The notes beneath the pieces were generated by a model. That model saw nothing but the letters and a program-made list of their open reading frames with translations, was not told where the DNA came from and did no database searches. DNA of 64,000 nt from positions 1,981,216 to 2,045,215 of the forward strand of contig CAJINV010000002.1 of the NCBI GenBank assembly GCA_905178155.1, in the 5' to 3' direction. Shown piece after piece: positions 5,597 to 63,500 of this stretch; position 1 is the first letter of the stretch, and each line of letters begins with the position of its first letter. A program made the translations under genes and the position numbers. The stretch is from Amoebophrya sp. A120. Taxonomy: Eukaryota; Protista; Dinoflagellata.

Positions 5597-8500
5597 TCAG
5601 CACATCCCACAACACCTGGCCCTCCCTGCGACACTCCTTTCGTAGTGCTGCTTCGTCACCCTTTTCAGTGCCGTCTCCGCCATCCCGCGCCACACGAGAA
5701 AAACGAATTTATCCTTTTCCAGAAAGCTGACTTCGATCGACAACACCTTCTGCATTTGCTTCTGATTTTGGTACACATCCCACAATCCCGCAAGAGCGTG
5801 CGCCGCCGCAACGTCTTTATCAAAATGCCTGCCCCCGCTCCCGATCGCCGGCGCTCCCACCCGGATGATGTCTTGTTTCTTCGGTTGGTTCCTCGCTTTC
5901 TCCTCTTTACTCATCGCCTTCACCGTTTGGATACCGGTTTCCTGCTCTTGCCCGTCCGCACCGACGATGAATCTCGGACTCGGTTCTGGTGTTGGGAGTG
6001 GTGAAGGATCATTTGACGGCACTGGCGAATTTCTTGGGCTGGGCCTCGGTGATTTCGAATTTTTTCTTTCAACCACCGCCTGTCGGTTCGCTATTAACGA
6101 TTGTGATTCGATCTCCAGTAGCGCGTGCGTCATCACGCAGCGCCAAACCTTCCTGACCGACAACTTCGCTTCGTCCACCGTTTTCGCGTTATGCAGTGCA
6201 AAAGTATCGCACTCGTATAAATGCATTACAAATTTCCTCAGCATGAGAAATGAAATTTGTAATGCTACATTTTTGCCTTAAGAACAAGATTTGTAATGCA
6301 TGATTGCAATACGAGTACGATACTTTTGCACAGGATACGCGTAGTCTTCCGCGGATTTCTGAATCAGCCTTTTGTACATAAAATGCTCATCCGCGTTCCG
6401 TTTCATCTATGAAAGCCTCAGAATGGAAATCCTCAACGTGGAAATAATTTGTGATGCATGAAATGCGACGCGGGCGCGGCAAAAAAGACTGTATTGCAGA
6501 GGACGCAAAAATGAAGGCCGACTATTGCCCTTCTACGTGTCAAGAATTGGAGTGCTGATTTTTAGCACCAGAGGAGGGCACCCCTTTGCGTTAACCAGCA
6601 TGACAGGCATGCTTTGAGTGCAGCAAGAGAAATTTGTCATGCGCCGCCTAGAAGTGGCGCTTCAACTGGAATGCTTTTCTGCATTACAAACTATTTCCAC
6701 TTTGAGGATTTCCAACCTGAGGCTTTCATATCATCTTCAACAAATCCTCATCGGAAAACGGGAATCGCGGGACGTGGACGTGTAAGATGTACCGCGTTCT
6801 CAGTCCCGGGTGGTTCAACACGTAGGATAAATCGTGGTCCTTATCGTTATCCCGGCCTATCTGCTCGTGCACCTTCGTGTGGAAATTCACGCCAGTATGG
6901 ATGTGCCAGAGTTGAAATCGACAAAGTTGAAATAATATGTCATGCATAAAATGGATGCCAGTTGGAACCCAGTTTCCAAGTAGCGCATGACAAATCTCGG
7001 CGGTCCCTAAATCCAGTTTGTCATGCTGTTTAGGCAAAGAGGAGCGATTTTCTCATGCTACTTTAGCAGCTCGAGCTGTAACCCTAAACAGGCTTACAAT
7101 CGGCCTCACTTGCCTGCTCTGCAACACACGTGCCTCGGGTCATGCATTTTATGCATTACGGATTATTTCAACTTTGACGATTTCAAACCTGACGCTTCCA
7201 TAGCCAGAAATGTGCCCGTATTTTTCGTCATAGAGTAAGGATGAAGGCACTTCTATCCTGAGTAAAAACGTACCCACGCCAGAGTTGTAATGCAGATTTT
7301 TTTTTTTTTTTTTCATTGGGCCCCACGCCAGAGCTTCAGTTTCAGTTTCAGATTTGCGCTTTCCGGTCTATTTCCGCCGGGGGTTGCGCCGTGTACAGCA
7401 GGTCGACACTGCCAGGAAAATCGATGTGCGCGCCGCATTGGTCCATACAAAGCAAAACCCTAAACCCGTCGGAAACATAAATCCGCATGCATACAGGGGG
7501 GTCACCCCTGAACCCTTTCGAACTTGGACCGGACACACGCATGGAAAATCCCCACGATATAGTTAACGTCTATAGCCGTAAGCCGCGGCGGACGTTGCTA
7601 TGCTGTGGGACGAATAGCAAGGGGGGTCGATATGGGTCGAGACTAAGCGCGATGTGCAGAAAGCCGCTGCACCTGACGGTAGTAAAGATAGGGAGGAGAC
7701 CACTGCGTATGGAGATAGTTGCGCTTAGTGCGCGCTAATCGGGATCTGTGTAAACGCGGATACTGGGAACGCCCTATGCAAACGGGTTTTGCAAACCCGC
7801 GTTTGAAAAACCCAGCGGGAAACACGACCGAACCCCCGGCCATCGATGCATGGCGCGGAAAACATACAGAAACGAACCATGCGGGGTGCCCCCGCGACGA
7901 ACTTTTTTCGCGCGCTACTGTCCCCCGAAATAAACGGTCTGCTGATCTCAGATACTAGCCATAGGGTGCGACCAAGCCAAACGCCAATAATAGAAACCGC
8001 GCACCCTGACGAAGAACCTTTAGACGAAACCCGTAAGCCGCGGGCAATAAAGTTAATTTTTCAAAACTACTCCGGATGCATGTGCAGCTTCAGCCGATGG
8101 CGAACGGTTGGTCGCGATGAAATTTTCAATCTACGAAAAAAATATTTGTAAGTGGTCTCCTTTGGGGCGGGGCCGTTGAACCCACGATGAGGGGGGGCGG
8201 GGACCGTTGAGCCCCGGATTGTACCAGAGTTGTAATGCAGATTTGCAAAGACAGGAAGACTTGTAATGCGCATCCCCATGAGAGCCATTTCCAATCGTGT
8301 TTTGGAATTTGTGATGCTGTGAACAGGATGAGCAGATGAATCTGCGATGCGGCTGCACTTGCTAACCTGCACTACACTGCATAGTGCAACTTGTCATGCG
8401 TGACTCACAAAACTCCTAGGCTTGTGTTGCAGAATCCCCATCCTGACTCTGGTGTGGGTACGTTTTTACTCAGGATAACTTCGGTTTGCAACAACTCACC

Positions 8501-11174
8501 CGGCCGCAATCGGTACATGTCGTTGTACTTGTGGTAGCCGAATTCCCGCGCTTCGGGAAACGCTCTGTCATCATCGTCATCGAGAGAAGCGCGCTTCTTC
8601 TTCGCAGCAGCAGAAGAAGTTGTATCTGTGGTCGCAGCTGCACTGGTGGCGATTGATTCAAAAAATTTCGCCTGGGCGGAGGTTTTGGTCAAAGCATTGT
8701 CTCTTCCGCCGAAGAGGTTGAAGACAGACGAGGTTTTCCTCTGCAACTTCGGCTCATAGCCATTCGGATCCTCATCGACCATCTCCGGCGCGGTCGCGCG
8801 GTGCTTTCCCTCCGCGGCTAATTGCTTGTTCTGCAAGAAATTGCTTTGCACCGCAGAACTCGCTCCAAGAACGGAGGGCAAAGCTTGGGCTATCCAGGAA
8901 AAAAAGTGTGTAAGTGTAACTTTCTTTGAGAAACAGCATCACAAATTTGCTCTACATGACAGAGAAAACCTGTCATGCGTGGCTTGTAAGGGAAAACACA
9001 CACGAAAAGAGGACTTCGTGGCTGTCTGGCATGACAGGTGTAACTCTGTTGCATGTTCTGCAACACAAATTTACACTTACACAGTTTTATTTTTCTTGCA
9101 TATGGGCGGCTGGGTTTGTATTGCTCGTTCTCGGTTGCCCAGACCTATCAAATGTAAAAATGTCTGGGTCTGGAGGATTTCTTGACTTGTCATTCATATT
9201 TTCCATGACCCATGATGTCTGTGATGCATGCCGTAGCATCACAGATTTTGTGAGGGCTTCCTGATGCCTATACCGCATGACAAATGCTCTTTCCGTGTAG
9301 CAAAACTTGGACTATCTTTGCTGCTCATGCAAAAATACATATTTTTTTAGAATCCAAAATCAGCATGAGAAGTTCCATTCTTCCAGACCCAGACATTTTT
9401 ACATTTGATAAGACCTCTCACTGGACGACTGCTGGGAGCGTTCGGAACGATTGCTTGGAGTGCGAGAACGAATGGATCTTGGACTTGGAGTGAGTAATGT
9501 GCTTTCACTATCCTGAGTAAAAACGTCCCCACACCAGAGTTGTAATGCAGATTTGCAAAGACAGGAAGACTTGTAATGCACATCCCCATAAAAGCCGTTT
9601 CCAATCGTGTATTCGAATTTGTGATGCTGTGAAGAGGATGAGCAGATGAATCTGTGATGCGGCTGCACTTGCTAACCTGCACTACACTGCGGAGTGCAAC
9701 TTGTCATGCGTGACTCCCAAAACTCCTAGGTTTGTGTTGCAAAATCCCCATCCTGACTCTGGTGTGGGTACGTTTTTACTCAGGATATTCACCACCACCG
9801 CCGCCTTTCGGTGACCCGGAGATTCGCGGGGAACCCGCTGGCGATTTTGACGGGCCCCTTCGCGGCCCCTCGCCGGGAAGTGCCAGAGTCCCAGACCGTT
9901 TCTTCTGCGCAGAAAATCGCTTGTCTTCATTCACTCCGCCGGTCAGAACCCTTGTGTTGTCCTTGTACCTTGCAACCGCGTCGTTCAAATCCTGAGCGGC
10001 CCCACTGGCGTGCGACCCAGACGGGGTGTGGATCTCTCCTCTTGGTGATTTCGACACAGAGCGTTCTGTCGAGATTTGATGTGCTCGCTGATTCTGCTTC
10101 GATTGATGTGCTATCAAATGCAAAAATGTCTGGGTCTGAAATGTTGCTGGGTTTGTCATGCAGATTTTGAATGGCCCATGATGTCTGTGATGCATGCCCT
10201 AGCGTCACAGATTTTTAGAGGACTTTGTGACGCCTCTACCGCATGAGAAATGCCCTCTCCACGTAGCACAAACTGGAGTCCTTTTCCTGGTCATGCAATA
10301 CAAATTTTTTTAGAATCCAGAGACAGCATTACAAGTTTAGAATCGTCCAGACCCAGACATTTTTGCATTTGATATGTGCACCTCCCCCTCCTCCTCTGGG
10401 CGTCAATTTCGGTGCGGTTAAAGGCACGGGGGAGTTAAACCTCGGTTTCGACCGATCCACGATTTTTCCGAACTTATCCCGGAAAATCACGCTATCCAAA
10501 TTCTTCCTGGTCTGCCGGTTTTGCGCTTCGCGATGGCGATCCATCTGCTTCTTATCCTCGTCCTTACTCGTTTGCCGCATTTGCGCGACCAGCTCCATTT
10601 CGGGCTGATACCGGCCGTTGTCGAGTAATTGGTCTTCCGGCTCGTTGAGGGCTGCAACGGACGCGGTTCGCCGGATCATTGTGCCATCGGTAGCTTCCCC
10701 TGCGTGGCCAGCACCATTTGAATTTTGGCCTGCTTCACCAAACCCGAGCATCTTCTCCCGCATCCTCCTGTTCATCAGAGCTTGTTGGGTCAAAAGCATC
10801 AAATCGTCTTCCGCTTCAGCTCCAGCAGACAACAACCGGTTCCGCGCGATGCACATCTCATGTAAAGTTGCGTCAAACCCTCTGTGTTGCTCATCGCGCC
10901 AGCAGGAGGCGTGGCGAACCCCCTGGAGACAGGGGTTTGTGCTGGTTACCAAGTAATCCCCGTCGAAATCCCGGAGGTCGTGGTTTAGTTTTAAAACGAG
11001 GAACATTTTGAGATTCTGCTTTTGGTCCTTCTTCTTGTTGCTTTCTCCCGTGCTATTGTTTCCATGGCTATCGAGTTCGTGTTGCTCTTGCAGATGCCGG
11101 GTCGCGCGGCCGCCAAGTGCGGAGAACTCGAAGTAGACGTATTGGTCCTTGCCTTTAGATGAATTCGCGGACAT
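5597..11174 (-). CDS. Gene B, 9-exon hypothetical protein (MSANSSKGKDQYVYFEF...RCCGMC)
   Basis: ATG at 11174, stop at 5597. All 9 exons are in frame after removing 8 TIR elements plus one TSD each; checked exon by exon, including small exons EVPSSLLYDEKYGHISG and MKRNADEHFMYKRLIQKSAEDYA. Confidence 0.85.
6190..6337. mobile_element. Introner, family 2
   Basis: tatgcagtgcaaaagtatcg...cgatacttttgcacaggata; perfect TSD cgcgt. Confidence 0.95.
6408..6730. mobile_element. Introner, family 7
   Basis: Long TIR tatgaaagcctcagaatggaaatcctcaacgtggaaata; perfect TSD tcatc. Confidence 0.95.
6896..7202. mobile_element. Introner, family 7-related
   Basis: tatggatgtgccagagttgaaatcgacaaagttgaaataat...attatttcaactttgacgatttcaaacctgacgcttccata; perfect TSD gccag. 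Confidence 0.9.
7254..8477. mobile_element. Introner, family 3, with nested retro-insertion
   Basis: TIR tatcctgagtaaaaacgtacccac; perfect TSD acttc; colinear with the intact copy 9509-9787 apart from the insert. Confidence 0.92.
7297..8223 (-). mobile_element. Non-coding poly(A)-tailed retroposon (SINE-like)
   Basis: T17 at 7297-7313; 21-bp TSD ccagagttgtaatgcagattt at 7279-7299 and 8224-8244; (ctgaaa)n repeats before the tail; no credible ORF. Confidence 0.85.
8891..9102. mobile_element. Introner, family 6
   Basis: tatccaggaaaaaaagtgtgtaagtgtaa...ttacacttacacag...tcttgcata; perfect TSD tgggc. Confidence 0.92.
9146..9410. mobile_element. Introner, family 1
   Basis: Perfect TIR tatcaaatgtaaaaatgtctgggtctgga; perfect TSD agacc. 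Confidence 0.96.
9509..9787. mobile_element. Introner, family 3
   Basis: TIR tatcctgagtaaaaacgt; perfect TSD ttcac. Confidence 0.96.
10112..10374. mobile_element. Introner, family 1
   Basis: TIR tatcaaatgcaaaaatgtctgggtctg; perfect TSD tgtgc. Confidence 0.96.
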
Positions 11175-49210: not shown

Positions 49211-49738
49211 CACAATTCAAACAAATTTTCACATTTGCAACTCATACGCAACATGACATCCCTCAGCCCCATCCTCATCTCACTCCCAATCCAGAAGCTA
49301 GCGCTGCCTTTTGTCGCTACGCAAAACTAAAGAAAACGCGTCTACTCATTGCTGTGTGTAAGTACGAGATACACGACTTACGTCTTACTCACATCACACA
49401 CACGCATCACATCTGCAAAGACTTCCACTCCTACGACCAACGCGAACACGGAACTGCAGTTCTTCTTCTCCCACTTCAAGGTTCAGCAGGATCTTCGATA
49501 AATTGCAAACAACAGAAAAATGATTTGTACTGGGATGAAAAGCCACAAGAGTCTCGTTGTTTCTTGATGGCATTGCTAGAATTTGATATCATAATCGCAA
49601 TCGGGGATTATCAGTGTGCGTATGACGGCAGTAACGTGCCCAACCCCTAACTTACCCATGGGGGATAAAAAAAAAAATTTCGGTTTATCTTATATAGATA
49701 ATATAGATATTTATATAAGATACCTAGTTGAAATAGAT

Positions 49739-51690
49739 ATATAATTTCACCTTCTCTGCGCAATTCACCCATAGAGTGAACGCGCGCGCAACCAACGGAA
49801 GCGAATGACGTGCAGAAGTAGCGCGTCGCAGTGATAGTCGCAAGACCTCGAGCGACAGTCACAATGGCAGCTAAGAGAGAACCCGGCCGGCACAACGAGC
49901 TACGGGTAGCAGGCCATGCAAGCCAGGCTCTCGACCCCCACAGAGCCATGCCCCGGACATAGAGGTGGCCCAAGCCGCGAGACGCGACTGGGACCGCCGA
50001 ATATCTAGGGCGGGCTTGCGAGGGGTGCCGCAAGGGGTCTCGCGACCTCAAGTCGGGTGGGAGGGTGGGAAAAAACGCAAAATCTAGGCGAGCCAAGACA
50101 ATGCGGTATTTCTGGAAAAAGGACAGAGACCCAGCCGAAGCTGGTCGACACCGGGCAGCCAGCCCGGTGTCGGAGTGTGCAACCCTCTTGCTTGATCATG
50201 TGAACTGATATAATCGCTACGCGACGCATATAATTTCACCTTCTCTGCGCAATTCACCCATAGAGTGAACGCGCGCGCAACCAACGGAAGCGAATGACGT
50301 GCAGAAGCGCGTCGCAGTGATAGTCGCAAGACCTCGAGCGACAGTCACAATGGCAGCCAAGAGAGAACCCGGCCGGCACAACGAGCTACGGGTAGCAGGC
50401 CATGCAAGCCAGGCTCTCGACCCCCACAGAGCCATGCCCCGGACATAGAGGTGGCCCAAGCCGCGAGGCGCGACTGGGACCGCCGAATATCTAGGGCGGG
50501 CTTGCGAGGGGTGCCGCAAGGGGTCTCGCGACCTCAAGTCGGGTGGGAGGGTGGGAAAAAACGCAAAATCTAGGCGAGCCAAGACAATGCGGTATTTCTG
50601 GAAAAAGGACAGAGACCCAGCCGAAGCTGGTCGACACCGGGCAGCCAGCCCGGTGTCGGAGTGTGCAACCCTCTTGCTTGATCATGTGAACTGATATAAT
50701 CGCTACGCGACGCATATAATTTCACCTTCTCTGCGCAATTCACCCATAGAGTGAACGCGCGCGCAACCAACGGAAGCGAATGACGTGCAGAAGCGCGTCG
50801 CAGTGATAGTCGCAAGACCTCGAGCGACAGTCACAATGGCAGCCAAGAGAGAACCCGGCCGGCACAACGAGCTACGGGTAGCAGGCCATGCAAGCCAGGC
50901 TCTCGACCCCCACAGAGCCATGCCCCGGACATAGAGGTGGCCCAAGCCGCGAGGCGCGACTGGGACCGCCGAATATCTAGGGCGGGCTTGCGAGGGGTGC
51001 CGCAAGGGGTCTCGCGACCTCAAGTCGGGTGGGAGGGTGGGAAAAAACGCAAAATCTAGGCGAGCCAAGACAATGCGGTATTTCTGGAAAAAGGACAGAG
51101 ACCCAGCCGAAGCTGGTCGACACCGGGCAGCCAGCCCGGTGTCGGAGTGTGCAACCCTCTTGCTTGATCATGTGAACTGATATAATCGCTACGCGACGCA
51201 TATAATTTCACCTTCTCTGCGCAATTCACCCATAGAGTGAACGCGCGCGCAACCAACGGAAGCGAATGACGTGCAGAAGCGCGTCGCAGTGATAGTCGCA
51301 AGACCTCGAGCGACAGTCACAATGGCAGCCAAGAGAGAACCCGGCCGGCACAACGAGCTACGGGTAGCAGGCCATGCAAGCCAGGCTCTCGACCCCCACA
51401 GAGCCATGCCCCGGACATAGAGGTGGCCCAAGCCGCGAGGCGCGACTGGGACCGCCGAATATCTAGGGCGGGCTTGCGAGGGGTGCCGCAAGGGGTCTCG
51501 CGACCTCAAGTCGGGTGGGAGGGTGGGAAAAAACGCAAAATCTAGGCGAGCCAAGACAATGCGGTATTTCTGGAAAAAGGACAGAGACCCAGCCGAAGCT
51601 GGTCGACACCGGGCAGCCAGCCCGGTGTCGGAGTGTGCAACCCTCTTGCTTGATCATGTGAACTGATATAATCGCTACGCGACGCATATA
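49739..51690. repeat. Four near-identical tandem units of 486 bp (first 489 bp), each joined at atata
   Basis: Units start atataatttcaccttc at 49739, 50228, 50714 and 51200; the ORF track repeats with a 486-bp period. Confidence 0.97.
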
Positions 51691-51706
51691 AGATCAGTAG
51701 CTAGAA

Positions 51707-51826
51707 AAGGCGTTTTTGAAGGCTTCCACGACGCTACTCCGCCGACATCCAGCTCCACGGATTCGCCCGAATCCGTGGAGCTGGATGTCGGCGGAGTAGC
51801 GTCGTGGAAGCCTTCAAAAACGCCTT
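51707..51826. repeat. Perfect palindrome, 59-bp arms with a 2-nt spacer
   Basis: aaggcgtttttgaaggc...ccacggattcg-cc-cgaatccgtgg...gccttcaaaaacgcctt. Confidence 0.97.
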
Positions 51827-52001
51827 ATATACATAAGCTATTAAGCTAACTAAAAACAAAGCATTTTCACTAGCTAGTTCGGTTCAGTTCAGTTCGACGC
51901 ATTATCCTGTTTCAGTTAACCGCTCTGAAATTAATCGATTGAATCGTGGATGTGCGTGCACTACTATCATCTTCTTTTCCTTCCAGGGGTGTAAGGCTCG
52001 T

Positions 52002-53396
52002 CTATCGCAACACAAAAGTTCCGTCGTTTTCCCGTACGAACCACACCCCTGCTACGTTCATTTCTTCCTTTCCTGAGTTTTCGCAGAAATAGACGTCACT
52101 GACTTCGAAAGCCACCTCTGGGTCCCCTTCCACCTCCCACTGCCCCGGCCTACTCGTTGAAGCTCTCCACTTTTTTCCTGAAAGTTTTTCTACAAGAGCT
52201 GCAGCAGCTTCAGCTTGTTCAGCTTTCTGTTGTTCGAGCCGAAGGCGCCTCTCCTCAAGCATTTTCTCCGCCTTTTTCGACCGCTTTCCCCGCTCGGGCC
52301 CTTTCTTCTTTTGCTCCCTTCTCCCAGTGGCGTAGGGCCGTCGCCGTGTCAGCGTTTCCCTTGTGGCCGCGCCCGTTGGCTTTTGTGCCACCAAGTCGTC
52401 GAGGCTGAAGTTGTAAAACTCGAGGTCTTCTGCGGCTTTGCGGCCCCATGGCGTTTTTTCCTGGATTTCTGTCCTGACACGGGACAAAGAACCCTCCCCG
52501 GTTGTGTCCCGTGCTGTGTGTGCGATCCAGGATATCCGTTTTTCCCGAAGCTCTACTTCGATAGCCTGGACCCCAAGCATGCGGCACATCTGGTCGCGGG
52601 AAGGCGCGCCCTGCCAATCCCAATAACCGAGGATGTGGCGCAGCACCTGGGTCTGAAAGCTCCGAAGGATCTTCTCGTCTTCTTCCGAAGTCGCCCAGGT
52701 TTCGGCGTTGTACAGGGCGACGCTTAGCGACAACGCGCGGTAGAGCCCTGCCTTGAGGTGTTTCGGTACTTCTTTGTCGCGCCAGATTTTTGTCAACGAC
52801 TTAACTGTGCTCAGCGCCATCGCGCATCGCCTTTTCGTTTCGGACGTAGTCGTTGCATTCCGGTCGATTTCTGTGCCCAAGTACACAAAACGCTCCACCG
52901 TGGCTATTTGCTTCCCACCATGCCATACGTGAACAGGCTCCGCCACCGCTGCCGCCTTTTCGCTTTTCTTCTTTCCCTCTACCTGTCTGGCCACCCGTAG
53001 GGTTCTCTGTTCCTGTATGGTTTTGTCCTTGCGGCAGAACCCGGTGGCCAGGTGGTACTTCAGCGCGGTGGCATCCTCCAACACATCGCCGCACCTCGGG
53101 CAACGGTGCTGGTTGTGTTTCTCGAGGATGTACTCCCGGCGGCCTAGCCTCGTGATCCGCATGGCCCTGCCGTTGTCGAGCGTGGCCCACCCGGATGCCT
53201 TCATCTTGATGATGTTGAGGAGTCCGTTGTCCCACACGGCAAGGTGGGTGGGGACCAAGTCCCCCATCAGCTTCGTTGACACCGCTGCCGCGGCAGCGCG
53301 GTATTCTCGAACCAGGTCGATGCCGTCCCATTCCACGAGGAACCCATGGACTGCCTTGGCCCCCTCTTCTTCGCTGATCATGCACCGCTCTGTCAT
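52002..53396 (-). CDS. C-terminal part of an RTE-like non-LTR retrotransposon protein (C2H2-like zinc finger plus RT domain 7/thumb), 5'-truncated but open (464 aa)
   Basis: VERFVYLGTEID...ETKRRCAMA...LTKIWRDK...KAGLYRAL...LYNAETW...FQTQVLRHILG is typical of the RTE-clade C-terminus; CPRCGDVLEDATALKYH; no YxDD or endonuclease; (gaact)n tail at 51876-51895. Confidence 0.85.
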   Translation of the reverse strand: MTERCMISEEEGAKAVHGFLVEWDGIDLVREYRAAAAAVSTKLMGDLVPTHLAVWDNGLLNIIKMKASGWATLDNGRAMRITRLGRREYILEKHNQHRCPRCGDVLEDATALKYHLATGFCRKDKTIQEQRTLRVARQVEGKKKSEKAAAVAEPVHVWHGGKQIATVERFVYLGTEIDRNATTTSETKRRCAMALSTVKSLTKIWRDKEVPKHLKAGLYRALSLSVALYNAETWATSEEDEKILRSFQTQVLRHILGYWDWQGAPSRDQMCRMLGVQAIEVELREKRISWIAHTARDTTGEGSLSRVRTEIQEKTPWGRKAAEDLEFYNFSLDDLVAQKPTGAATRETLTRRRPYATGRREQKKKGPERGKRSKKAEKMLEERRLRLEQQKAEQAEAAAALVEKLSGKKWRASTSRPGQWEVEGDPEVAFEVSDVYFCENSGKEEMNVAGVWFVRENDGTFVLR

Positions 53397-53817
53397 CGCA
53401 ATTTAATATATAACTACCTTATTTACACCGAAAAAAAAAAACTGTATCCCTTTGGGTAACTAGCCTGTTGGGCACGTTACTGCCGTCATAGTGCGCTACA
53501 TGTTTTTACTAAAACTGGGTACGAATAAACAGGTCGAGGTGGCGTTCGTCATCTTCTGACTCAAATCAAACTTCAACTTGGTCATTGCAATACTGGGTGT
53601 GGGTCGTGGTCGATGAAGTTGTTCAAACGAAAAAAAATGCAACATAATTTGAAAGAGTAAGAGAAAGAATGAGATTCCAAAAAAAAAAGAATACAAAAAT
53701 GTGCTAGATGAATTTGTTTTGATGTACTGAGGTACTCGTACTACTGATAAAAAAGGTAGGACCAACGAACTAGGAGTACGAGTACTTCTGCTCTGCACCC
53801 TTGAATAAACAAGAACT

Positions 53818-56800
53818 CTAAATCTTCCTCCTTTTCGCCGAATCCAACAGTGCGGACATGTCCTCCGGCTCAATGGTCCCAGGGTCCTGCGCCGTCAACT
53901 ATGCCTTGCAAAAGTATCTTACTATATACGAATTGCATCACAAATTTTGTGAAGAAAGAAAAATGCAGTTTGTCATGCTAGTTGACGTAGAAGGTTGGAT
54001 TTTTCATGCATGACTGCAATTACCATGAGTATGATACACTTTTGCGATGCATATCAACCGCCCAACACTGATTTTCGACACCGTTCCGCTCGTGACGCCC
54101 TTCCCGCCCATCCGTCCCTTCTGCGAGTCGAGCGCCACCGCGTTACTGGGCCGGAACGGCGTAACCGGCAACGCGCTATCGGCGTTATTTGTAGCCACTG
54201 AGCCTCCCGTGGACGTGGATTTTGCCCGGGCGGCCTGCAGCATTTGCGTAAACGGGTTGGACGCGCGGGCCTCCTTGCCGGCTTGTTGCCACAGCAAGGC
54301 CGCGGGGGATCGTGCATTCGAAGTTCTGGCTGCGTCTGGAACGGCGCTCTGGTCGCCGATTTTCCCCTATGCTGTGTAAAAACGTCCCCACCCCAGAGTT
54401 GTCATGCAGATTTGCGATGACTGGAAGATTTGTAATGCGCAGGTCCATGCCAGGCGTTGCCAATCGTGTTTTGGACTTTGTAATACTGTAAACAGAATGA
54501 CAAGCTGGCTTTCTCATGCGGCTGCCCGTGCTAACCAGCACTACACTGCAGATGGGAACTTGTCATGCACAACGCCGAAAACTTGGAGATTTGTGTTGCA
54601 GATAGACCAACTTGACTATGGGGTGGGGACGTTTTTGCTCAGGATATCCCCGAAATGCGCTTCATTGGGGGTGGGTCAGTGGAGAGGAGTTCTTTACTCT
54701 CGACGTTACTGTTCGCCGCTGAGGTACCCAGAGTTCCGGTTGTCTGCTGACCCAGACCCATCTTCCCCGTCCCTTTGTATCTGGAACCCGCGCCGGCAAT
54801 ATATCCACAGGAAAAATGTTCCCGTACTGCACGCAGTCGCAGACGCACATCCAATGCCAATGCGGTTTCTGCATGACAAAACTTAAACTTTTCTTCAATC
54901 CTCTTGTTCAGCAGGACAGGTGGGAGGCTCTAAGTTGGAGTTGCCAATGCCAAAATTTGTCATGCATAATTTCGTACCTCTACGTCTACCTACGTCGACG
55001 TCGTGTACGGGAAATTTGTATTGCATAAGTTCGCTGGTGGACTACCGCCAAGTTTGAACGAGCTTTCCGCGTTTCCACCTGGTCCGCTGGTGACGCCACT
55101 TCCCGCAAAAGTGCTGTGGCTGTCCACCGTCTGGTTAGCGGGCTGACTCGTGTTCATCGCGTTCGGCTGACTTGCCATCGCGTGACTGGGCATGCTGCCT
55201 GCGAAGGTAATCGGAGCTGGTGCGGGCGAGCTTGCCATCCCGCCCGCAAACGTCACCGGCGGCGCGGGAGTGCTCGCCATGCCCCCCGCAAACGTAGCTG
55301 GTTGGTTGCCCGACGGCAGTTTTGCAGCTCGTGGGCCGGAGGACAAGACTTTCTTCCCGCCGGCGGAGGAGGAGATTCGTTTTGCACTATCCTTCTTCGA
55401 AGACGACTTCCGCTCTTTGCCCGGTAACGGCGCAATGCCGCCGAATCCTTGATAGTACTTCCCCGAATCGACTGGTTTCACCTCCGGAGTGGGCTCCGGC
55501 ATGACCATCATGCTCGGCTCGTACAACCCAGTGACCGGGTTCACCTTTCCATACCTTTTCCCGTGCGCCTGGTTCTCGTCAGGTGCCTTCTGCACGATCG
55601 GCTGCTCGGGTAGTTCTTGTTTTTTTGGCGGTTTGCGATACTGATACCACTGCTGGAGATACTGTGCCTGTTCGTCTTGCGTCATGGTCTGCCACCACTG
55701 TTCGTTTTGCATCTGCTCGATAGCGGCTAGTTGTTGAGGATCGAGGGGTTGAGGTTGTGCTGCGTCGTAATTATTTTTACCGTACGCAGCTCCTGGTCCT
55801 GCACCTTTATTCCCTCCGTACGGATCTTTGGTACCGGAAAATTTCATATCTTTGCCGTGTGGAGGACCACCGCCTTTGATGTTAGGATTCATCGCGCTAT
55901 CCTTGCCACCTTGTCCTTTATCCCCGCCCTTGCCGTGCGCCCCAGGTGGTGGTCCTTTCATCCAAAACTCTTCTTTTTCGCCCTTTCCTTTGCCCCTGTG
56001 CTCCTCACCATGCTGGTGCTTGTTTTCCCCCGCGGCGGGGTGGTAGTGGCCGTAATCATCAATCCACCCCTCATCCTCCGGTTCCTTTTTGCAGTAGCAG
56101 CAACAGACACAGATGATAACAGCGATTATCCCGACCGGCAGGACGCAGAAAACGCCGATTTTCACGAGGTTCGCCGCCATCATGTCGAACTTCATGCGCT
56201 GGTTCAGGTTTAGTTTGGTTTGCTGCGAAATGGTTTGCTTTTCGTGTTGTTTTTGCTCCATCTCTACTTGCATCTGCATTTTCTTGTTCACCTTGGTCGT
56301 TCCAACGGTAAGCTTCTTCGTCTCTAGTAGGCCGGATGAACTGCCCGGTGCATCTTGTTCAACATCCGCCTTACTGTTCTTGTTCGCTGCAGCTGTTGAA
56401 GAAGTGGGAACACCAGAAACTGCTTGTCCTTGATGTTTTTTTCTATCTACTCTCGGGAAATGGAGAAACGCTGAAGCGGAGGCGGACGTAGTTGTGTCAG
56501 CGGTTGTTGGTGTCAGCGGTTTCTGTTGCTCATCCGCGTCACCCTGTCCTTCTCCTGCGGATAACATCCCGCGGTCAAGAACATTCGACGAGACGTCTTG
56601 ATTGTCGACATCACGGTCTGCAGCAGGAGCTATTCCGTCTTCATTCTTCTGCACGAGAGCAGTACTAGTAGCGCTTGTTGTCGCGCTTTCCTCGTTACCG
56701 CCCCGTTTGCCGCTCTCTTTGACCGCGACAGCAAGTGCTGCTTCCTCGGCTCCTTCTGTAGTATCACTAGCTCGCGTGGCAGCTTGCCGGTGGAAAATTT

Positions 56801-56930: not shown

Positions 56931-57882
56931 CTCTAATCGACAACGAAGACCCGCGTTTTTCGCGGGCCTAAGCATTTTGTCGCGAAAGAAAGTTCTCGAT
57001 AAGTTCGTGCTCGGCAGAATAATATCAAATTCAAAACATGATGCTAGAACTAGATGCAACTGGGGGTGTAGAACTAAAAAGTAATTAGTAGGGGTTTAAA
57101 TTACTAGAAATAATGCCTGCTGAGATTATATTCAGAAATTCGAAAAATGACAAGCACTGCTGCGCGAAGCAGGAAGCGAGTAGAGCCGCGCAGTTGGCTA
57201 ACGAATCATACGAAGATAGAAGCCGAGGAAGAAAACTTGTACGAATAATTCTGAACGAGGATAAAGTTGAAGACGAAAACATTGTTCCTTTTGGATGATG
57301 AAGATGATGCCCGAAAACGCACGATTGTGGCAAGACACCGAAGCTGCACTCATTTTTTGTTTATCGTGCAGACCACGAAGACGAAGCGTCACCAGCAACC
57401 GACGTTTGTTCTGTCAACAGAAACTGATTCGGGACTCTTCAACGTCTTGTCTACGAAACTTCTTAGCAAATAGACAAGCTTGCTTGCATCACACAAAGTG
57501 GAAGATGCAGCCTGGACCACCGTGAAGATTCACGATCAGAATCTCAACTATTTCGTGCCGGTCTTTTACGTTTTACAAGAACATTGATGGGATATCGAAA
57601 TGAGGACGCAACAGCAAGTGAATAAATCAGAAGTTGCTACTATGAATTAGCCAGAGGTGCCTGTGGCCAGTAATATTATTAGAGGCTAGCAGCTAGTAGA
57701 TACAGTGGTAGAGCTGGTCGCGCTTCCTGTTCCTAGACTCAAATATGTGGCCAAGAACGTCGTCTGCGCTTGACTAAGCTTTATTATCGGCAACGCCAAA
57801 AAAACTTGATCCAAAAACTGGTGGGTGGCTGCTCCGTATCGCCACACGACATCACCATCATCTCTGTCGTAAAAAAACCTTC

Positions 57883-60581: not shown

Positions 60582-63500
60582 TCATCCCGCCGGCACCCAG
60601 TAGCACTTGACGACGTGATTTGTCGCAACGACCAACACCACTCTGGTTTTCGCAAAAACGTTCACAATGTTCACCGACACGATATTCGGGAGTAGCCCGT
60701 TATCATCGTCCGGGTTTGATTCCTCCTGCGCTGCTTTCTCCAACTCCGGGTCGAGGATTTTGTGTTCGTGCTCGATCAGCAATTGCCCTGTCTTCGCGGA
60801 ATAGCTGTAGATCGAGATTTCGTCGACTATCCACACAAAGTGCCGGTACACCGCGATCTTCGGCTCGGCGTCGACATTCAAACCAACATTATGATATTGA
60901 AAGAGGTTTTCCCGTTTTTTCGAGGGGAGCTGGAATTTGATCTTCGGAAGGGTGGTAATGGGCTGTTGCTGCTGTTGCCGCTTTCGGTCGCGTTTCGTCC
61001 GGAGGGCGACGGGGCGGATGGGAACTGCTTGTGCAGGTTGGGTTTGGTCTTGTTGACCTGGTGCGGGGAGGGAGTCGGACAAGGGATTAGCGCCAGCTGC
61101 TCCTGCGTTCGTTGGTGTTGTCGCGTTACTCCTGTTCGTTGGCGTTTTCTGGTCGTCGAAGGGACTGTTACCTCCTTTCGCTGCGGAGGAGGAGGAGCTG
61201 CGGGTTTTGCGGTCAGCGTTGTCACCGGCATCATCACCATCTAGTTCTTCTGGATTCATCTCTTTAGAGGTACAAAATTTTCATACTCTTCTTCATACTT
61301 AAAAAATTCATATGCGCAGAAATCCAATACACCAGGACGGCCAAAAACACACACGAAGGGCGCAGACGTCACACGCTGATCGGGCTACGACTTATTTCCG
61401 CCCAATGTGTCACGCCGCAAAACCAAGCCCGGTCCGGGGCTGTCAAACTTCGGCAAGCATGCCCACAACAGTTTAGCGGGCCCCCTGCGGCGCCACTAGA
61501 GAAAGCAAATACCGCCACAACAGGCAGTAAACACGCCAAGCGCGCACATTTGTTGCGAGCTAGCTTTTTTGCGCTTTTTCGAGTGCAGCTTTCGGCGGTA
61601 AAGCTTGACGCCACAGCGGTGCGCAAGAACACGCGCCGGAGCCACAAAGGTAAAGCGCAATGCACAGGCGCCACGCAGGCCCACCGTGATGGCTCTCTCC
61701 GCTTGCACACGAACATGAGACGCTGCGCTTCGGCGTCGTGCTCAACCATGGAGCCAGAGGGAGCGGAAGCGCGCGCGAAAATGCGCGCGAAAATGCGCAC
61801 GGAAATGCGCTAAAAATATACGCAGAGTAAGTGGTTCCATTTTTCGCCACCCATAAACTTGCTTCTTAGAGTGCACGGCATGGCCTATGTTCGCGCGCTT
61901 TTTCGCGCGCGCGAAAATGCGCAAGAAAATGCGCCGAAAAGTATGCAGAAAAAGTGACCCCATTTTCGACCACCCGTAAATTTCTTAGACTGCATGGCAT
62001 GCTCTATGTTCGCGCGCTCTTGCGCGCGCGCGAAAATGCGCACGAAAATGCGCTGAAAATTATGCACAAAAAGCGACCCCATTTGTGGCCAGCCATAAAC
62101 TTCTTAGACTGCGTGGCATGGTCTATGTTCTCTGCGCGCTCCTGCGCGCGCGCGTTTTTTATCTATGTTTGCGCGCTCTTTTTCGCGCTTGTTTTTTTTG
62201 CTGGAGCGCCGCGCCCTCCCGAAAGGCTCGGGCGTTGCGCTCTCGTTGTGCTCAAACACGGAGGCCAAGCACCGGAGCAAGAGACGCAGTGCGTTGCTGG
62301 TGGCGGACGTGTTCCAGCCGGGAATATCTTCGCCTACTAGCGAGCGCCACTTCCTGCGCGCAGCTTGAAGCGCGCGACCTTTTGGGCCCGCGTGCCTTTC
62401 TGCCAGCTTGAGTGCTGATAGTTCTCGAAACGGATTTGAGCACGGGCACCGCAGGCGGGCGCGTTTGCGTTGCAGTCTAAACGAGAGAGGAACCGCGCTC
62501 ACGCAGATTCGAAGCGGCATCTCATACAGCCTGCCTCCGCAGGCACTCCGCACGAGCGCGCTCCGCGCTCCTGTCTATTTTTTTCGCGACGAGCAATCCA
62601 GAAGATGCGCGCTTCTGATTCTTGCATAACATAGACCCAGTTGGAGTCTTTTTTTCCGCGCCTCGAGCAGAGCATGCGAATTTTTTAAGTATGGTCTTGA
62701 GTATGTATTTCGTGTAGCCTTAATCTCTTCATCAGTACTACTGTCCTGCTCATCCTCATCCCCACCAATTCCATCCGGCAACACCGCCCCAGCCGCGGTG
62801 AAATACGCCAAATCCTCTTCATCGCTCGAGCACTCGGAAATTTCCTCGTCAATCAACATCCGGTGCGCCTTCGACCCTATTGGCGGTAAATTCGATAAGA
62901 ACCCGTCATCGGAAAAGGTCGGTTGTTTGTGAAACGCTTGGCCATAGCCGGTACGTAATTTCTTCCTATTCGCGTCAGCTGTTGTTGGCCGGGATGAATC
63001 TCTTCTACCAGACACCGGGCTCAACCCGGTCGACGCCGCGATGGACTCAGTCGCGGAAGCGACCATGGTTACAGGAGCGGTTATTGCGGAAAACATGGAG
63101 CCGAACAAACCGCCAGAATTTGTTTCTTCCTTCTTCTTCGAATTCGAGGTTGGGGACAGAGGGGACGATGTGTCTGCGGTTTGTCTATTCGGGGTTCTTG
63201 GTCTTTGCGCGGTTTGCGATCGTTTTCCAGCGGAGGAGGAAAACTCCCCCGCGACTTGCTCCTTCCCCATCTCCGTTTCGCAGGAAAAGACCATGCAGCG
63301 GAAGACGGATTTCTGCACCTTGTACAGCACCGCAGCCGTTTTGCCGTAGATCGCGAAATCGAGGATGGGGGAAGATTTGGTACTCGTTATTCCACCACTG
63401 GTCTCAGCCACGTGTTTTATCTTCTTCCCATACCCGGGGAACTTGTGCAAAAGTGGTACTTTCACCCCGTACAAATGTTCCTCCGCAAAATCGCCGATCT

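What the first reader, a model, noticed from the sequence alone, without database searches (positions are those of the whole stretch)
49621..53490. Introner-type TIR element carrying a LINE C-terminal ORF, a perfect hairpin and a 4 x 486-bp array
Seen: TAT...ATA termini and a 5-bp TSD like the introners, and the first 8 nt (tatgacgg) equal one family-4 end. Without its cargo the shell would be ~200 bp, i.e. introner-sized. Inside, on the minus strand, lie an open 464-aa zinc-finger plus RTE-thumb ORF with an ATG ~95 nt from the TIR, a (gaact)n tail, a 59-bp perfect stem and four near-identical structured units. Known: RTE LINEs are often 5'-truncated and end in short-repeat tails. Inference: either serial nesting of retroelements at the (TA)n centre of a MITE, or a mobile cassette of RNA-binding protein plus hairpin plus RNA array.
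Basis: partly seen in the sequence, partly recalled or inferred. Interest (0 to 1): 0.85.

Follow-up and report, generated by a model that had tools for sequence, protein, structure and literature searches.

The report
Nested transposons inside a spliced introner
This is not one RNA-protein cassette: it is a 398-base remnant of a 10.7-kb DNA transposon into which a broken retrotransposon and four copies of a small, likely rolling-circle element later jumped, and the host parasite (Amoebophrya) likely still splices the whole 3.9 kb out of a gene's transcript.

Summary
The features are real, but they are three independent layers, not a cassette. (1) A 398-nt shell (TAT..ATA ends, 5-bp TSD) matches the two ends of a 10,702-bp gene-carrying TIR transposon on a metagenome contig (3 differences in 398 nt). 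That parent has neither array nor LINE. The 59-bp 'hairpin' is the parent's inner 69-bp inverted repeat, brought together by a 10.3-kb internal deletion. (2) The 464-aa ORF is the 3' part of a 1,298-aa endonuclease + reverse-transcriptase LINE of Amoebophrya sp. A120 (2 differences in 464 aa). Its ATG is an internal Met, and the LINE contigs in RNA-like runs come from the full-length copy. (3) The 486-bp unit is a dispersed element (roughly 18 copies) inserted at TATATA, with Helitron2/Replitron-like ends; its class is inferred. Two RNA-like runs skip the whole element plus one TSD, along with neighbouring introners, so it behaves as a 3,875-nt non-canonical intron in a 3' UTR. The best by-product is the direct link between an introner and a full-length parent, whose large gene may be a divergent hAT-like transposase (unproven).

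The parts
49616..49620 (.). left target-site duplication GTGCG
49621..49738 (.). left part of the shell: outer TIR (24 nt perfect, 43 nt imperfect), A-tract, AT-rich stretch; same as the left end of the 10.7-kb parent
49739..51685 (.). four head-to-tail copies (489/486/486/486 nt) of a dispersed non-TIR element inserted at T^ATATA; asymmetric inverted repeat and terminal hairpins, likely non-autonomous rolling-circle type
51686..51876 (.). middle part of the shell, holding the deletion junction of the parent
51707..51826 (.). 59-bp perfect stem: remains of the parent's 69-bp inner inverted repeat (140 nt from each end), joined by a 10.3-kb deletion at 51767/51768
   Evidence: other members hold other sequence at 51767
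51877..53401 (-). 5'-truncated RTE-like LINE, 1,525 nt, TSD 0-1 nt (boundaries can shift by 1 nt)
51877..51895 (-). GAACT-type 3' tail of the LINE; full-length LINE contigs of RNA-like runs end at 51877
52002..53396 (-). 464-aa ORF = residues 835-1298 of the full-length LINE protein P0003: insert with zinc finger, RT motif 7, thumb, C-terminus; no endonuclease, no catalytic DD
53402..53490 (.). right part of the shell with the outer TIR; same as the right end of the parent
53491..53495 (.). right target-site duplication GTGCG
49502..49615 (-). last exon (3' UTR) of the host transcript, joined across the element
53491..53894 (-). host exon with the stop codon; the stop lies 327 nt before the element

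Best explanation
The element is a 398-nt internal-deletion derivative of a 10.7-kb TIR DNA transposon that later took two independent insertions, a 5'-truncated LINE and four tandem copies of a small, likely rolling-circle element, and the host likely splices all 3,875 nt out of a 3' UTR as a non-canonical intron. Steps: (1) shown: the shell equals the parent's first 200 and last 198 nt; inferred: a deletion inside the parent's inner inverted repeat made the closed hairpin. (2) shown: TIRs and a 5-bp TSD at a new locus; inferred: cut-and-paste in trans by the parent family's transposase, which may be a divergent hAT-like enzyme (unproven). (3) shown: the LINE fragment matches a full-length copy and sits at a site that is empty in the parent; inferred: target-primed reverse transcription that stopped 11 codons past RT motif 6. 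(4) shown: the unit sits at TATATA here and has other flanks elsewhere; inferred: single-strand (HUH-type) insertion without true duplication, where each left junction recreates the target, so repeated insertion or a concatemer builds the array. (5) shown in contigs of two RNA-like runs: exact removal with one TSD copy; inferred: the paired TIRs define the intron whatever lies between, so nested insertions cost the host little.
For: Parent: TIR pattern found twice, 10,702 bp apart, with TSD AATTG on contig JACKZZ010004950.1; 3 differences in 398 nt between shell and parent ends; no array and no LINE in the parent; 69-bp perfect inner repeat starting 140 nt from each end. Members without the array: joints 49738->51686 (X1) and 49746->51694 (X3, X4, X6); without the LINE: joint 51875->53401 and loose end at 53403 (X1); with other sequence at the hairpin tip: 656 nt in X3, loose ends in 2 X1 contigs. 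LINE: P0003, 1,298 aa, Exo_endo_phos + RVT_1, named Amoebophrya sp. A120, 99.4% identical from residue 833; X3 and X4 contigs run 617 and 2,710 nt further upstream and carry the two P0003 residues. Unit: contig depth 803 against 43-46 in the flanks in X1 and 418 against 23-27 in X2 (rough, about 18 copies); other flanks in X3 (two) and X9 (one); a longer relative shares 50069-50232; 5 of the window's 9 TATATA sites lie in this element. Splicing: joint 49615->53491 in X3 and X4; the X4 contig also skips three neighbouring introns, which gives an 867-aa open frame; no such joint is listed for X1 or X2.
Against: X3 and X4 are only guessed to be RNA by the tool and are one sample of one study. X6, a second sample, barely covers the flanks and does not show this joint, so 2 of 3 RNA-like runs laid show it; the two raw-read RNA runs laid 0 reads. 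Contigs drop rare forms and the joint tables were cut, so an empty allele in part of the culture is not excluded. No genome was available, so copies could not be counted or aligned and the order of steps 3 and 4 is not known. The rolling-circle reading of the unit rests on a 10-of-12 asymmetric repeat found after looking (13 of 2,000 shuffles and 9 of 1,378 genomic windows reach the score), a 4-bp terminal stem and three left plus two right flanks; no autonomous partner was found. The parent's big ORF has no Pfam, PDB or Atlas hit, no NCBIfam hit near a cut-off and no homologue but itself.
Confidence: 0.9

Rival explanations
1. A mobile cassette: the TIR shell carries a domesticated RNA-binding protein (zinc finger + thumb), a hairpin RNA and an RNA array that work together.
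For: The ORF is open over 464 aa and starts at a Met 2 codons after the truncation point, at the start of the zinc-finger insert; a random break leaves an in-frame Met within 3 codons only about 5% of the time. The unit is strongly structured.
Against: Each piece has its own origin and an empty site. The ORF differs from the full-length LINE at 2 of 464 residues, so an open frame needs no selection. The LINE contigs of RNA-like runs carry the full-length alleles and run on upstream. Flank junction contigs are at single-copy depth.
Confidence: 0.03
2. The nesting is right, but the joined contigs come from an empty allele (the element absent in part of the culture or in another isolate) and not from splicing.
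For: Removal of the element plus one TSD is what an empty site looks like; none of the six possible cut registers on the transcribed strand gives GT-AG (read); run type is a guess.
Against: The same X4 contig skips three more introns, one with no TSD, and these restore an 867-aa frame. It has no listed differences from the window, stops at 49502 while DNA-like runs go on, and its length fits an end at 57112 next to the ORF start. X1 and X2 hold the filled junctions at single-copy depth. Non-canonical splicing of such elements is published for this organism (PMC7789003, section 11 and passages).
Confidence: 0.06
3. The nesting is right, but the 486-bp unit is a different kind of element: a TIR-less element with a true 5-bp TSD at ATATA, a Crypton-like circle-forming element, or an RNA-borne SINE or retrozyme.
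For: ATATA(A) is repeated at both ends and once between units, which a site-specific TSD or a recombinase crossover would also give; pieces of the unit occur in RNA-like contigs; strong RNA fold.
Against: No B box, tRNA, hammerhead core or Rfam match, and no similarity to the LINE 3' end; the asymmetric repeat just upstream of a terminal hairpin fits the Helitron2 description (PMC3627910, passages).
Confidence: 0.35

Closest known systems
Amoebophrya sp. A120 introner elements (Farhat et al. 2021, PMC7789003: passages and section 11 read; Gozashti et al. 2025, PMC12130899: passages, supplement PDF passages, 40 of 58 A120 rows of one dataset)
   Same: TAT..ATA inverted ends, short direct repeat, non-canonical removal from the transcript, MITE-like.
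   Different: 3.9 kb because of two nested insertions; lies in a 3' UTR; lacks the A-run after TAT + 7 nt that Farhat et al. describe; a near-identical full-length parent is in hand, whereas Farhat et al. report no transposase in A120.
MITEs derived from autonomous TIR transposons by internal deletion (established knowledge; summarised in PMC7789003, passage in section 16)
   Same: Both ends kept, inside deleted, new TSD at a new site.
   Different: The parent has a second, perfect 69-bp inverted repeat 140 nt inside each end, so the derivative folds back almost completely.
RTE-clade LINEs such as Bov-B (PMC13295347, passages)
   Same: One ORF with APE + RT, no C-terminal CCHC knuckle, frequent 5' truncation, microsatellite tail; the tail is a circular permutation of the (CTGAA)n tail of cattle Bov-B.
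   Different: About 160 extra residues with a C-x2-C-x12-H-x5-C finger between RT motifs 6 and 7; TSD 0-1 nt; clade not tested by a tree with named references.
Helitron2 / Helentron non-autonomous elements (HINE, DINE-1; PMC3627910, PMC4067079, PMC5148889, passages) and Replitrons (PMC10288648, passages)
   Same: No TIR, asymmetric short inverted repeat upstream of a terminal hairpin, oriented insertion at a fixed short target, tandem copies; short terminal direct repeat as in Replitrons.
   Different: Target is TATATA, not TT; the 5' hairpin does not include the 5' repeat; no Rep-coding partner found.
hAT superfamily, hAT5 group with 5-bp TSD (PMC12730594, passages); IS3EU/GingerRoot with TA..TA ends and 6-bp TSD (PMC10045372, passages)
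   Same: For the 10.7-kb parent: 5-bp TSD as in hAT5; TRW and FPxL motifs recalled from hAT transposases; TA..TA ends as in IS3EU.
   Different: No profile or fold evidence for either; TSD length does not fit IS3EU.

Membership tests
Amoebophrya A120 introner | Inverted repeat starting with TAT | tested here: met
   feature from PMC7789003 section 11
Amoebophrya A120 introner | Direct repeat of 3-5 nt at the boundaries | tested here: met
   GTGCG
Amoebophrya A120 introner | Removed from the transcript with non-canonical ends | tested here: met
   joint in X3 and X4 (RNA is the tool's guess; one sample), not listed for X1, X2
Amoebophrya A120 introner | Repeated family | tested here: met
   other flanks and variants in X1-X4, X6; parent at another locus
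Amoebophrya A120 introner | Run of three or more A after TAT + 7 nt (family consensus in Farhat et al.) | tested here: not met
   the TIR reads GTAAC there; a family trend, so this is an atypical family
Non-autonomous deletion derivative (MITE) | Both ends match a longer element; inside deleted; no transposase | tested here: met
RTE-clade LINE | Single ORF with APE then RT | tested here: met
   P0003; 4,235-nt contig leaves about 210 nt before the ORF
RTE-clade LINE | No C-terminal CCHC knuckle | tested here: met
   (feature recalled)
RTE-clade LINE | Short tandem-repeat 3' tail | tested here: met
RTE-clade LINE | RT groups with named RTE elements in a tree | not tested
   no named RTE reference came back
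Helitron2 / HINE (486-bp unit) | 8-15 bp asymmetric inverted repeat, one copy at the 5' end, one just upstream of the 3' hairpin | tested here: inconclusive
   10 of 12, second copy 16 nt from the end (20-30 nt in PMC3627910); 13 of 2,000 shuffles, found post hoc
Helitron2 / HINE (486-bp unit) | 5' hairpin that includes the 5' repeat | tested here: not met
   the predicted hairpin starts about 20 nt in and leaves the first 19 nt unpaired
Helitron2 / HINE (486-bp unit) | Insertion in TT / T-rich target, no TSD | tested here: not met
   target reads T^ATATA at 3 left and 2 right flanks
Helitron2 / HINE (486-bp unit) | Autonomous RepHel partner with the same ends | not testable with these tools
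   no genome; pattern scans empty
Replitron (486-bp unit) | Short terminal direct repeats, right-end hairpin, oriented insertion | tested here: inconclusive
   ATATA(A) at both ends and a 4-bp stem fit, but the repeat may be target-derived
SINE or retrozyme (486-bp unit) | Pol III boxes / tRNA head, LINE-like tail, or hammerhead ribozyme | tested here: not met
hAT / hAT5 (10.7-kb parent) | 5-bp TSD (hAT5) | tested here: met
   AATTG and GTGCG
hAT / hAT5 (10.7-kb parent) | DDE transposase with hAT profile or fold | tested here: inconclusive
   no Pfam/PDB hit and no NCBIfam hit near a cut-off; single-sequence models at pLDDT 38; Atlas leads under 0.9 to TNP-like_RNaseH_N clusters for one exon; TRW motif present (motif recalled)
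IS3EU / GingerRoot (parent) | TA..TA ends with 6-bp TSD | tested here: not met
   ends fit, TSD is 5 bp

The most novel reading that the evidence does not exclude
The 10.7-kb parent is the autonomous mobiliser of this introner family: it sits in frame in a host exon like a giant introner and encodes a transposase too divergent for profile searches (hAT-like), and this window shows its deletion derivative acting as a self-removing landing pad for a LINE with a zinc-finger insert in its RT palm and for an undescribed TATATA-targeting rolling-circle element.
Probability: 0.4. Interest if true: 0.68.

Novelty: new member of a known kind. Interest (0 to 1): 0.4.

Why it matters
The cassette idea fails, so the finding as written is ordinary nesting. 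Two things remain useful. First, Farhat et al. (PMC7789003) found no transposase in A120 and doubted transposase-driven spread of its introners; here an introner is 99% identical to both ends of a 10.7-kb gene-carrying element, which names a concrete parent to test. Second, a tenfold enlarged introner still appears to be cut out exactly, which supports end-pairing as the splice signal and suggests (inference) that LINE or LTR homology inside TIR-flanked A120 introners can come from nesting, which would mislead automated classification.

Tried and rejected
No genome held for this window, so no genome-wide counts or dN/dS. Pfam and PDB on the 464-aa ORF alone: only sub-threshold zinc-finger hits. 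Rfam on the region: five sub-threshold microRNA-precursor matches to the perfect stem, rejected as generic hairpin matches; nothing on the parent loci. No tRNA in the window. Unit end patterns: 0 matches in metagenome and viral contigs. Parent ORF: 0 loci in viral contigs, no relatives but itself, no usable Atlas hit. Two single-sequence structure models (pLDDT 37.7 and 38.5) were too poor, so no fold search was run. Depth zero in the middle of the array is a result of reads fitting several places, not a finding. The exact number of tandem units could not be checked with short-read contigs. Targeting of this shell family by the LINE was considered (earlier notes describe it for other LINEs) but only one insertion is seen here. 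Earlier-finding look-ups by place and by sequence gave nothing. Literature searches returned no paper on nested elements in Amoebophrya introners or on an autonomous parent; the library lacks most subscription papers (Roy et al. 2023, Curr Biol, was seen only as a reference), the Farhat supplement was not read, and 18 of 58 A120 rows of the Gozashti dataset were not seen.
Full report
Observation. The element spans 49621-53490 with 24-nt perfect TIRs (43 nt at 81%) and the 5-bp duplication GTGCG. The same TAT..ATA + 5-bp signature marks 18 elements in the window against 0-2 in 30 shuffles. The array is 4.0 x 486 nt, units 2-4 identical and unit 1 with three extra bases and two substitutions. 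The stem is 59 bp perfect. The ORF is 464 aa. No genome was held, so copies were traced through protein searches, sequencing-run contigs and a metagenome pattern scan.

Organism. The ORF's near-identical full-length relative is named Amoebophrya sp. A120. Farhat et al. (PMC7789003; passages and section 11) describe A120 introners whose inverted repeats start with TAT and carry 3-5-nt direct repeats. The window is therefore very likely A120 (inference).

Layer 1, the LINE. P0003 (1,298 aa) has Exo_endo_phos at 45-301 and RVT_1 at 593-817. The window matches it from residue 833 to the end at 99.4%, with 2 differences in 464 aa. The ATG is Met 835, inside the protein, just after RT motif 6; the fragment lacks the endonuclease and the catalytic DD. 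In RNA-like runs X3 and X4 the LINE contigs (2,142 and 4,235 nt) go on 617 and 2,710 nt upstream of 53401, end at 51877, and carry the P0003 letters at 52645 and 53359. DNA-like contigs also show the P0003 letter at 52645, so the window's letter there is either private to this copy or an assembly error. Contigs drop rare forms, so silence of the truncated copy is not shown. An empty site exists: joint 51875->53401 and a loose end at 53403 in X1, and the parent. The insertion is 1,525 nt with a 0-1-nt duplication. Against pure chance: a random break leaves an in-frame Met within three codons about 5% of the time. The tail is a permutation of the (CTGAA)n tail of cattle Bov-B (PMC13295347, passages). 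RTE-like is supported by anatomy; the clade was not tested by a tree.

Layer 2, the shell and the hairpin. A scan for the 24-nt TIR found two matches on one metagenome contig, JACKZZ010004950.1, which bound a 10,702-bp element with TSD AATTG at another locus. The window's element minus array and LINE is 398 nt and differs from the parent's first 200 plus last 198 nt at 3 positions. The parent has no array and no LINE. It has a perfect 69-bp inverted repeat starting 140 nt from each end; the window's stem is what remains after a 10.3-kb deletion inside this repeat. Other members hold other sequence at the tip: 656 nt in an X3 contig and loose ends in two X1 contigs. So the hairpin is a deletion junction, not cargo. 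Removing the parent plus one TSD gives a stop-free host frame over the 199 codons read, so the parent sits in a coding exon like a giant introner; its splicing was not tested.

The parent's genes. It holds an 855-codon open frame (L001 672-3239), upstream exon-like frames and a 313-codon frame on the other strand, with coding-like codon-position GC for the first two. Searches found nothing significant: Pfam, NCBIfam, PDB sequences, the protein collection (only itself), Atlas. One exon gave Atlas leads under 0.9 to clusters in which 10-21% of members carry TNP-like_RNaseH_N. The long frame holds TRW near its start and FPQL near its end, motifs I recall from hAT transposases. hAT5 elements have 5-bp TSDs (PMC12730594, passages); IS3EU/GingerRoot have TA..TA ends but 6-bp TSDs (PMC10045372, passages). 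Single-sequence models were unusable. A divergent hAT-like transposase is a lead, not a result. Unchecked notes from other windows of this genome propose the same for other 11-23-kb elements; they are not independent evidence.

Layer 3, the array. Members without it exist (joints in X1, X3, X4, X6; parent). The unit's contig depth is about 18 times that of the flanks (803 against 43-46 in X1; 418 against 23-27 in X2), a rough figure only. It has other flanks in X3 and X9, and a longer relative shares its right 164 nt. All three left flanks read T then ATATAA, both right flanks read ATATA. TATATA occurs 9 times in the window, 5 of them in this element, which explains why the shell was hit. The unit has no TIR, B box, tRNA, hammerhead core or Rfam match and no similarity to the LINE. 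Its first 12 nt pair 10 of 12 with a site 16 nt from the right end, just upstream of a 4-bp hairpin; 13 of 2,000 shuffles and 9 of 1,378 genomic windows reach that score, and the feature was found after looking. This resembles Helitron2/HINE ends (PMC3627910, PMC4067079, PMC5148889; passages), and the short terminal repeat resembles Replitrons (PMC10288648; passages), but the TT target and the 5' hairpin of Helitron2 are not met. I put about 0.6 on a non-autonomous HUH (rolling-circle) element and do not file it in either family.

Splicing. X3 and X4 each have a contig that joins 49615 to 53491, removing 3,875 nt, the element plus one TSD. The X4 contig also skips 53895-54053, 54363-54646 and 54798-55028. 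Joining its pieces by coordinates gives an 867-aa frame on the minus strand whose stop lies 327 nt before the element, followed by a 114-nt last exon. X1 and X2 hold the filled junctions and list no such joints. None of the six possible cut registers is GT-AG on the transcribed strand. Limits: RNA is the tool's guess, X3 and X4 are one sample, X6 (second sample) does not cover these flanks, X12 and X13 laid no reads, and the joint table was cut.

Verdict. Serial nesting in an introner that is still removed from a 3' UTR (confidence 0.9). The cassette reading is rejected (0.03). Long A120 introners and retroelement homology inside them are already listed in Gozashti et al. (PMC12130899; passages and 40 of 58 A120 dataset rows), so the composite is a new member of a known kind. 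The link to a full-length parent is what deserves follow-up, since Farhat et al. found no transposase in A120. My ten paper searches found no report of such a parent, within a library that lacks most subscription journals.

Noticed in passing
L002:6001-12024 and L001:1-6024 (contig JACKZZ010004950.1, 51872-62573): 10,702-bp TIR element, TSD AATTG, in frame in a host exon; multi-exon gene of no known family with TRW and FPQL motifs (hAT-like, recalled); candidate autonomous parent of this introner family.
   Followed up: partly
L001:4593-5534 (-): Cargo frame of the parent; Atlas leads at 0.89-0.90 to bacterial clusters in which 30-39% of members carry DUF4365; looks like two PD-(D/E)xK-type nuclease repeats (recalled motif).
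   Followed up: partly
window 52900-53396 (-); P0003 residues about 825-990: The LINE family has about 160 extra residues with a C-x2-C-x12-H-x5-C finger between RT motifs 6 and 7: 21 of the 61 proteins with both motifs (of 154 examined) have the long spacer plus finger, among them A120 and AT5.2 proteins.
   Followed up: partly
window 54798-55028: An intron skipped in X4 that has no TSD or TIR at its ends but holds an inner inverted-repeat element (about 54880-54973); a different class from the TAT..ATA introners.
   Followed up: no
window 54368-54646: A very abundant introner family (contig depth in the tens of thousands against about 25 single-copy in X2); 11 X2 contigs join its end back to its start, which could be tandem copies or circles.
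   Followed up: no
window 7254-8477: 1,224-nt introner whose last 255 nt match the 279-nt family member at 9509-9787, with a second TIR-like start at about 8224: another nested or composite introner.
   Followed up: partly
X3/X4 contigs laid at window 49621-51878: A diverged member of the shell family with 656 nt between the inner arms appears whole in RNA-like contigs at depth 61-64; changes at 51729 and 51804 are compensatory in the stem.
   Followed up: partly
window 61783-62154: 3.1 copies of a 119-nt GC-rich tandem repeat at 83%.
   Followed up: no
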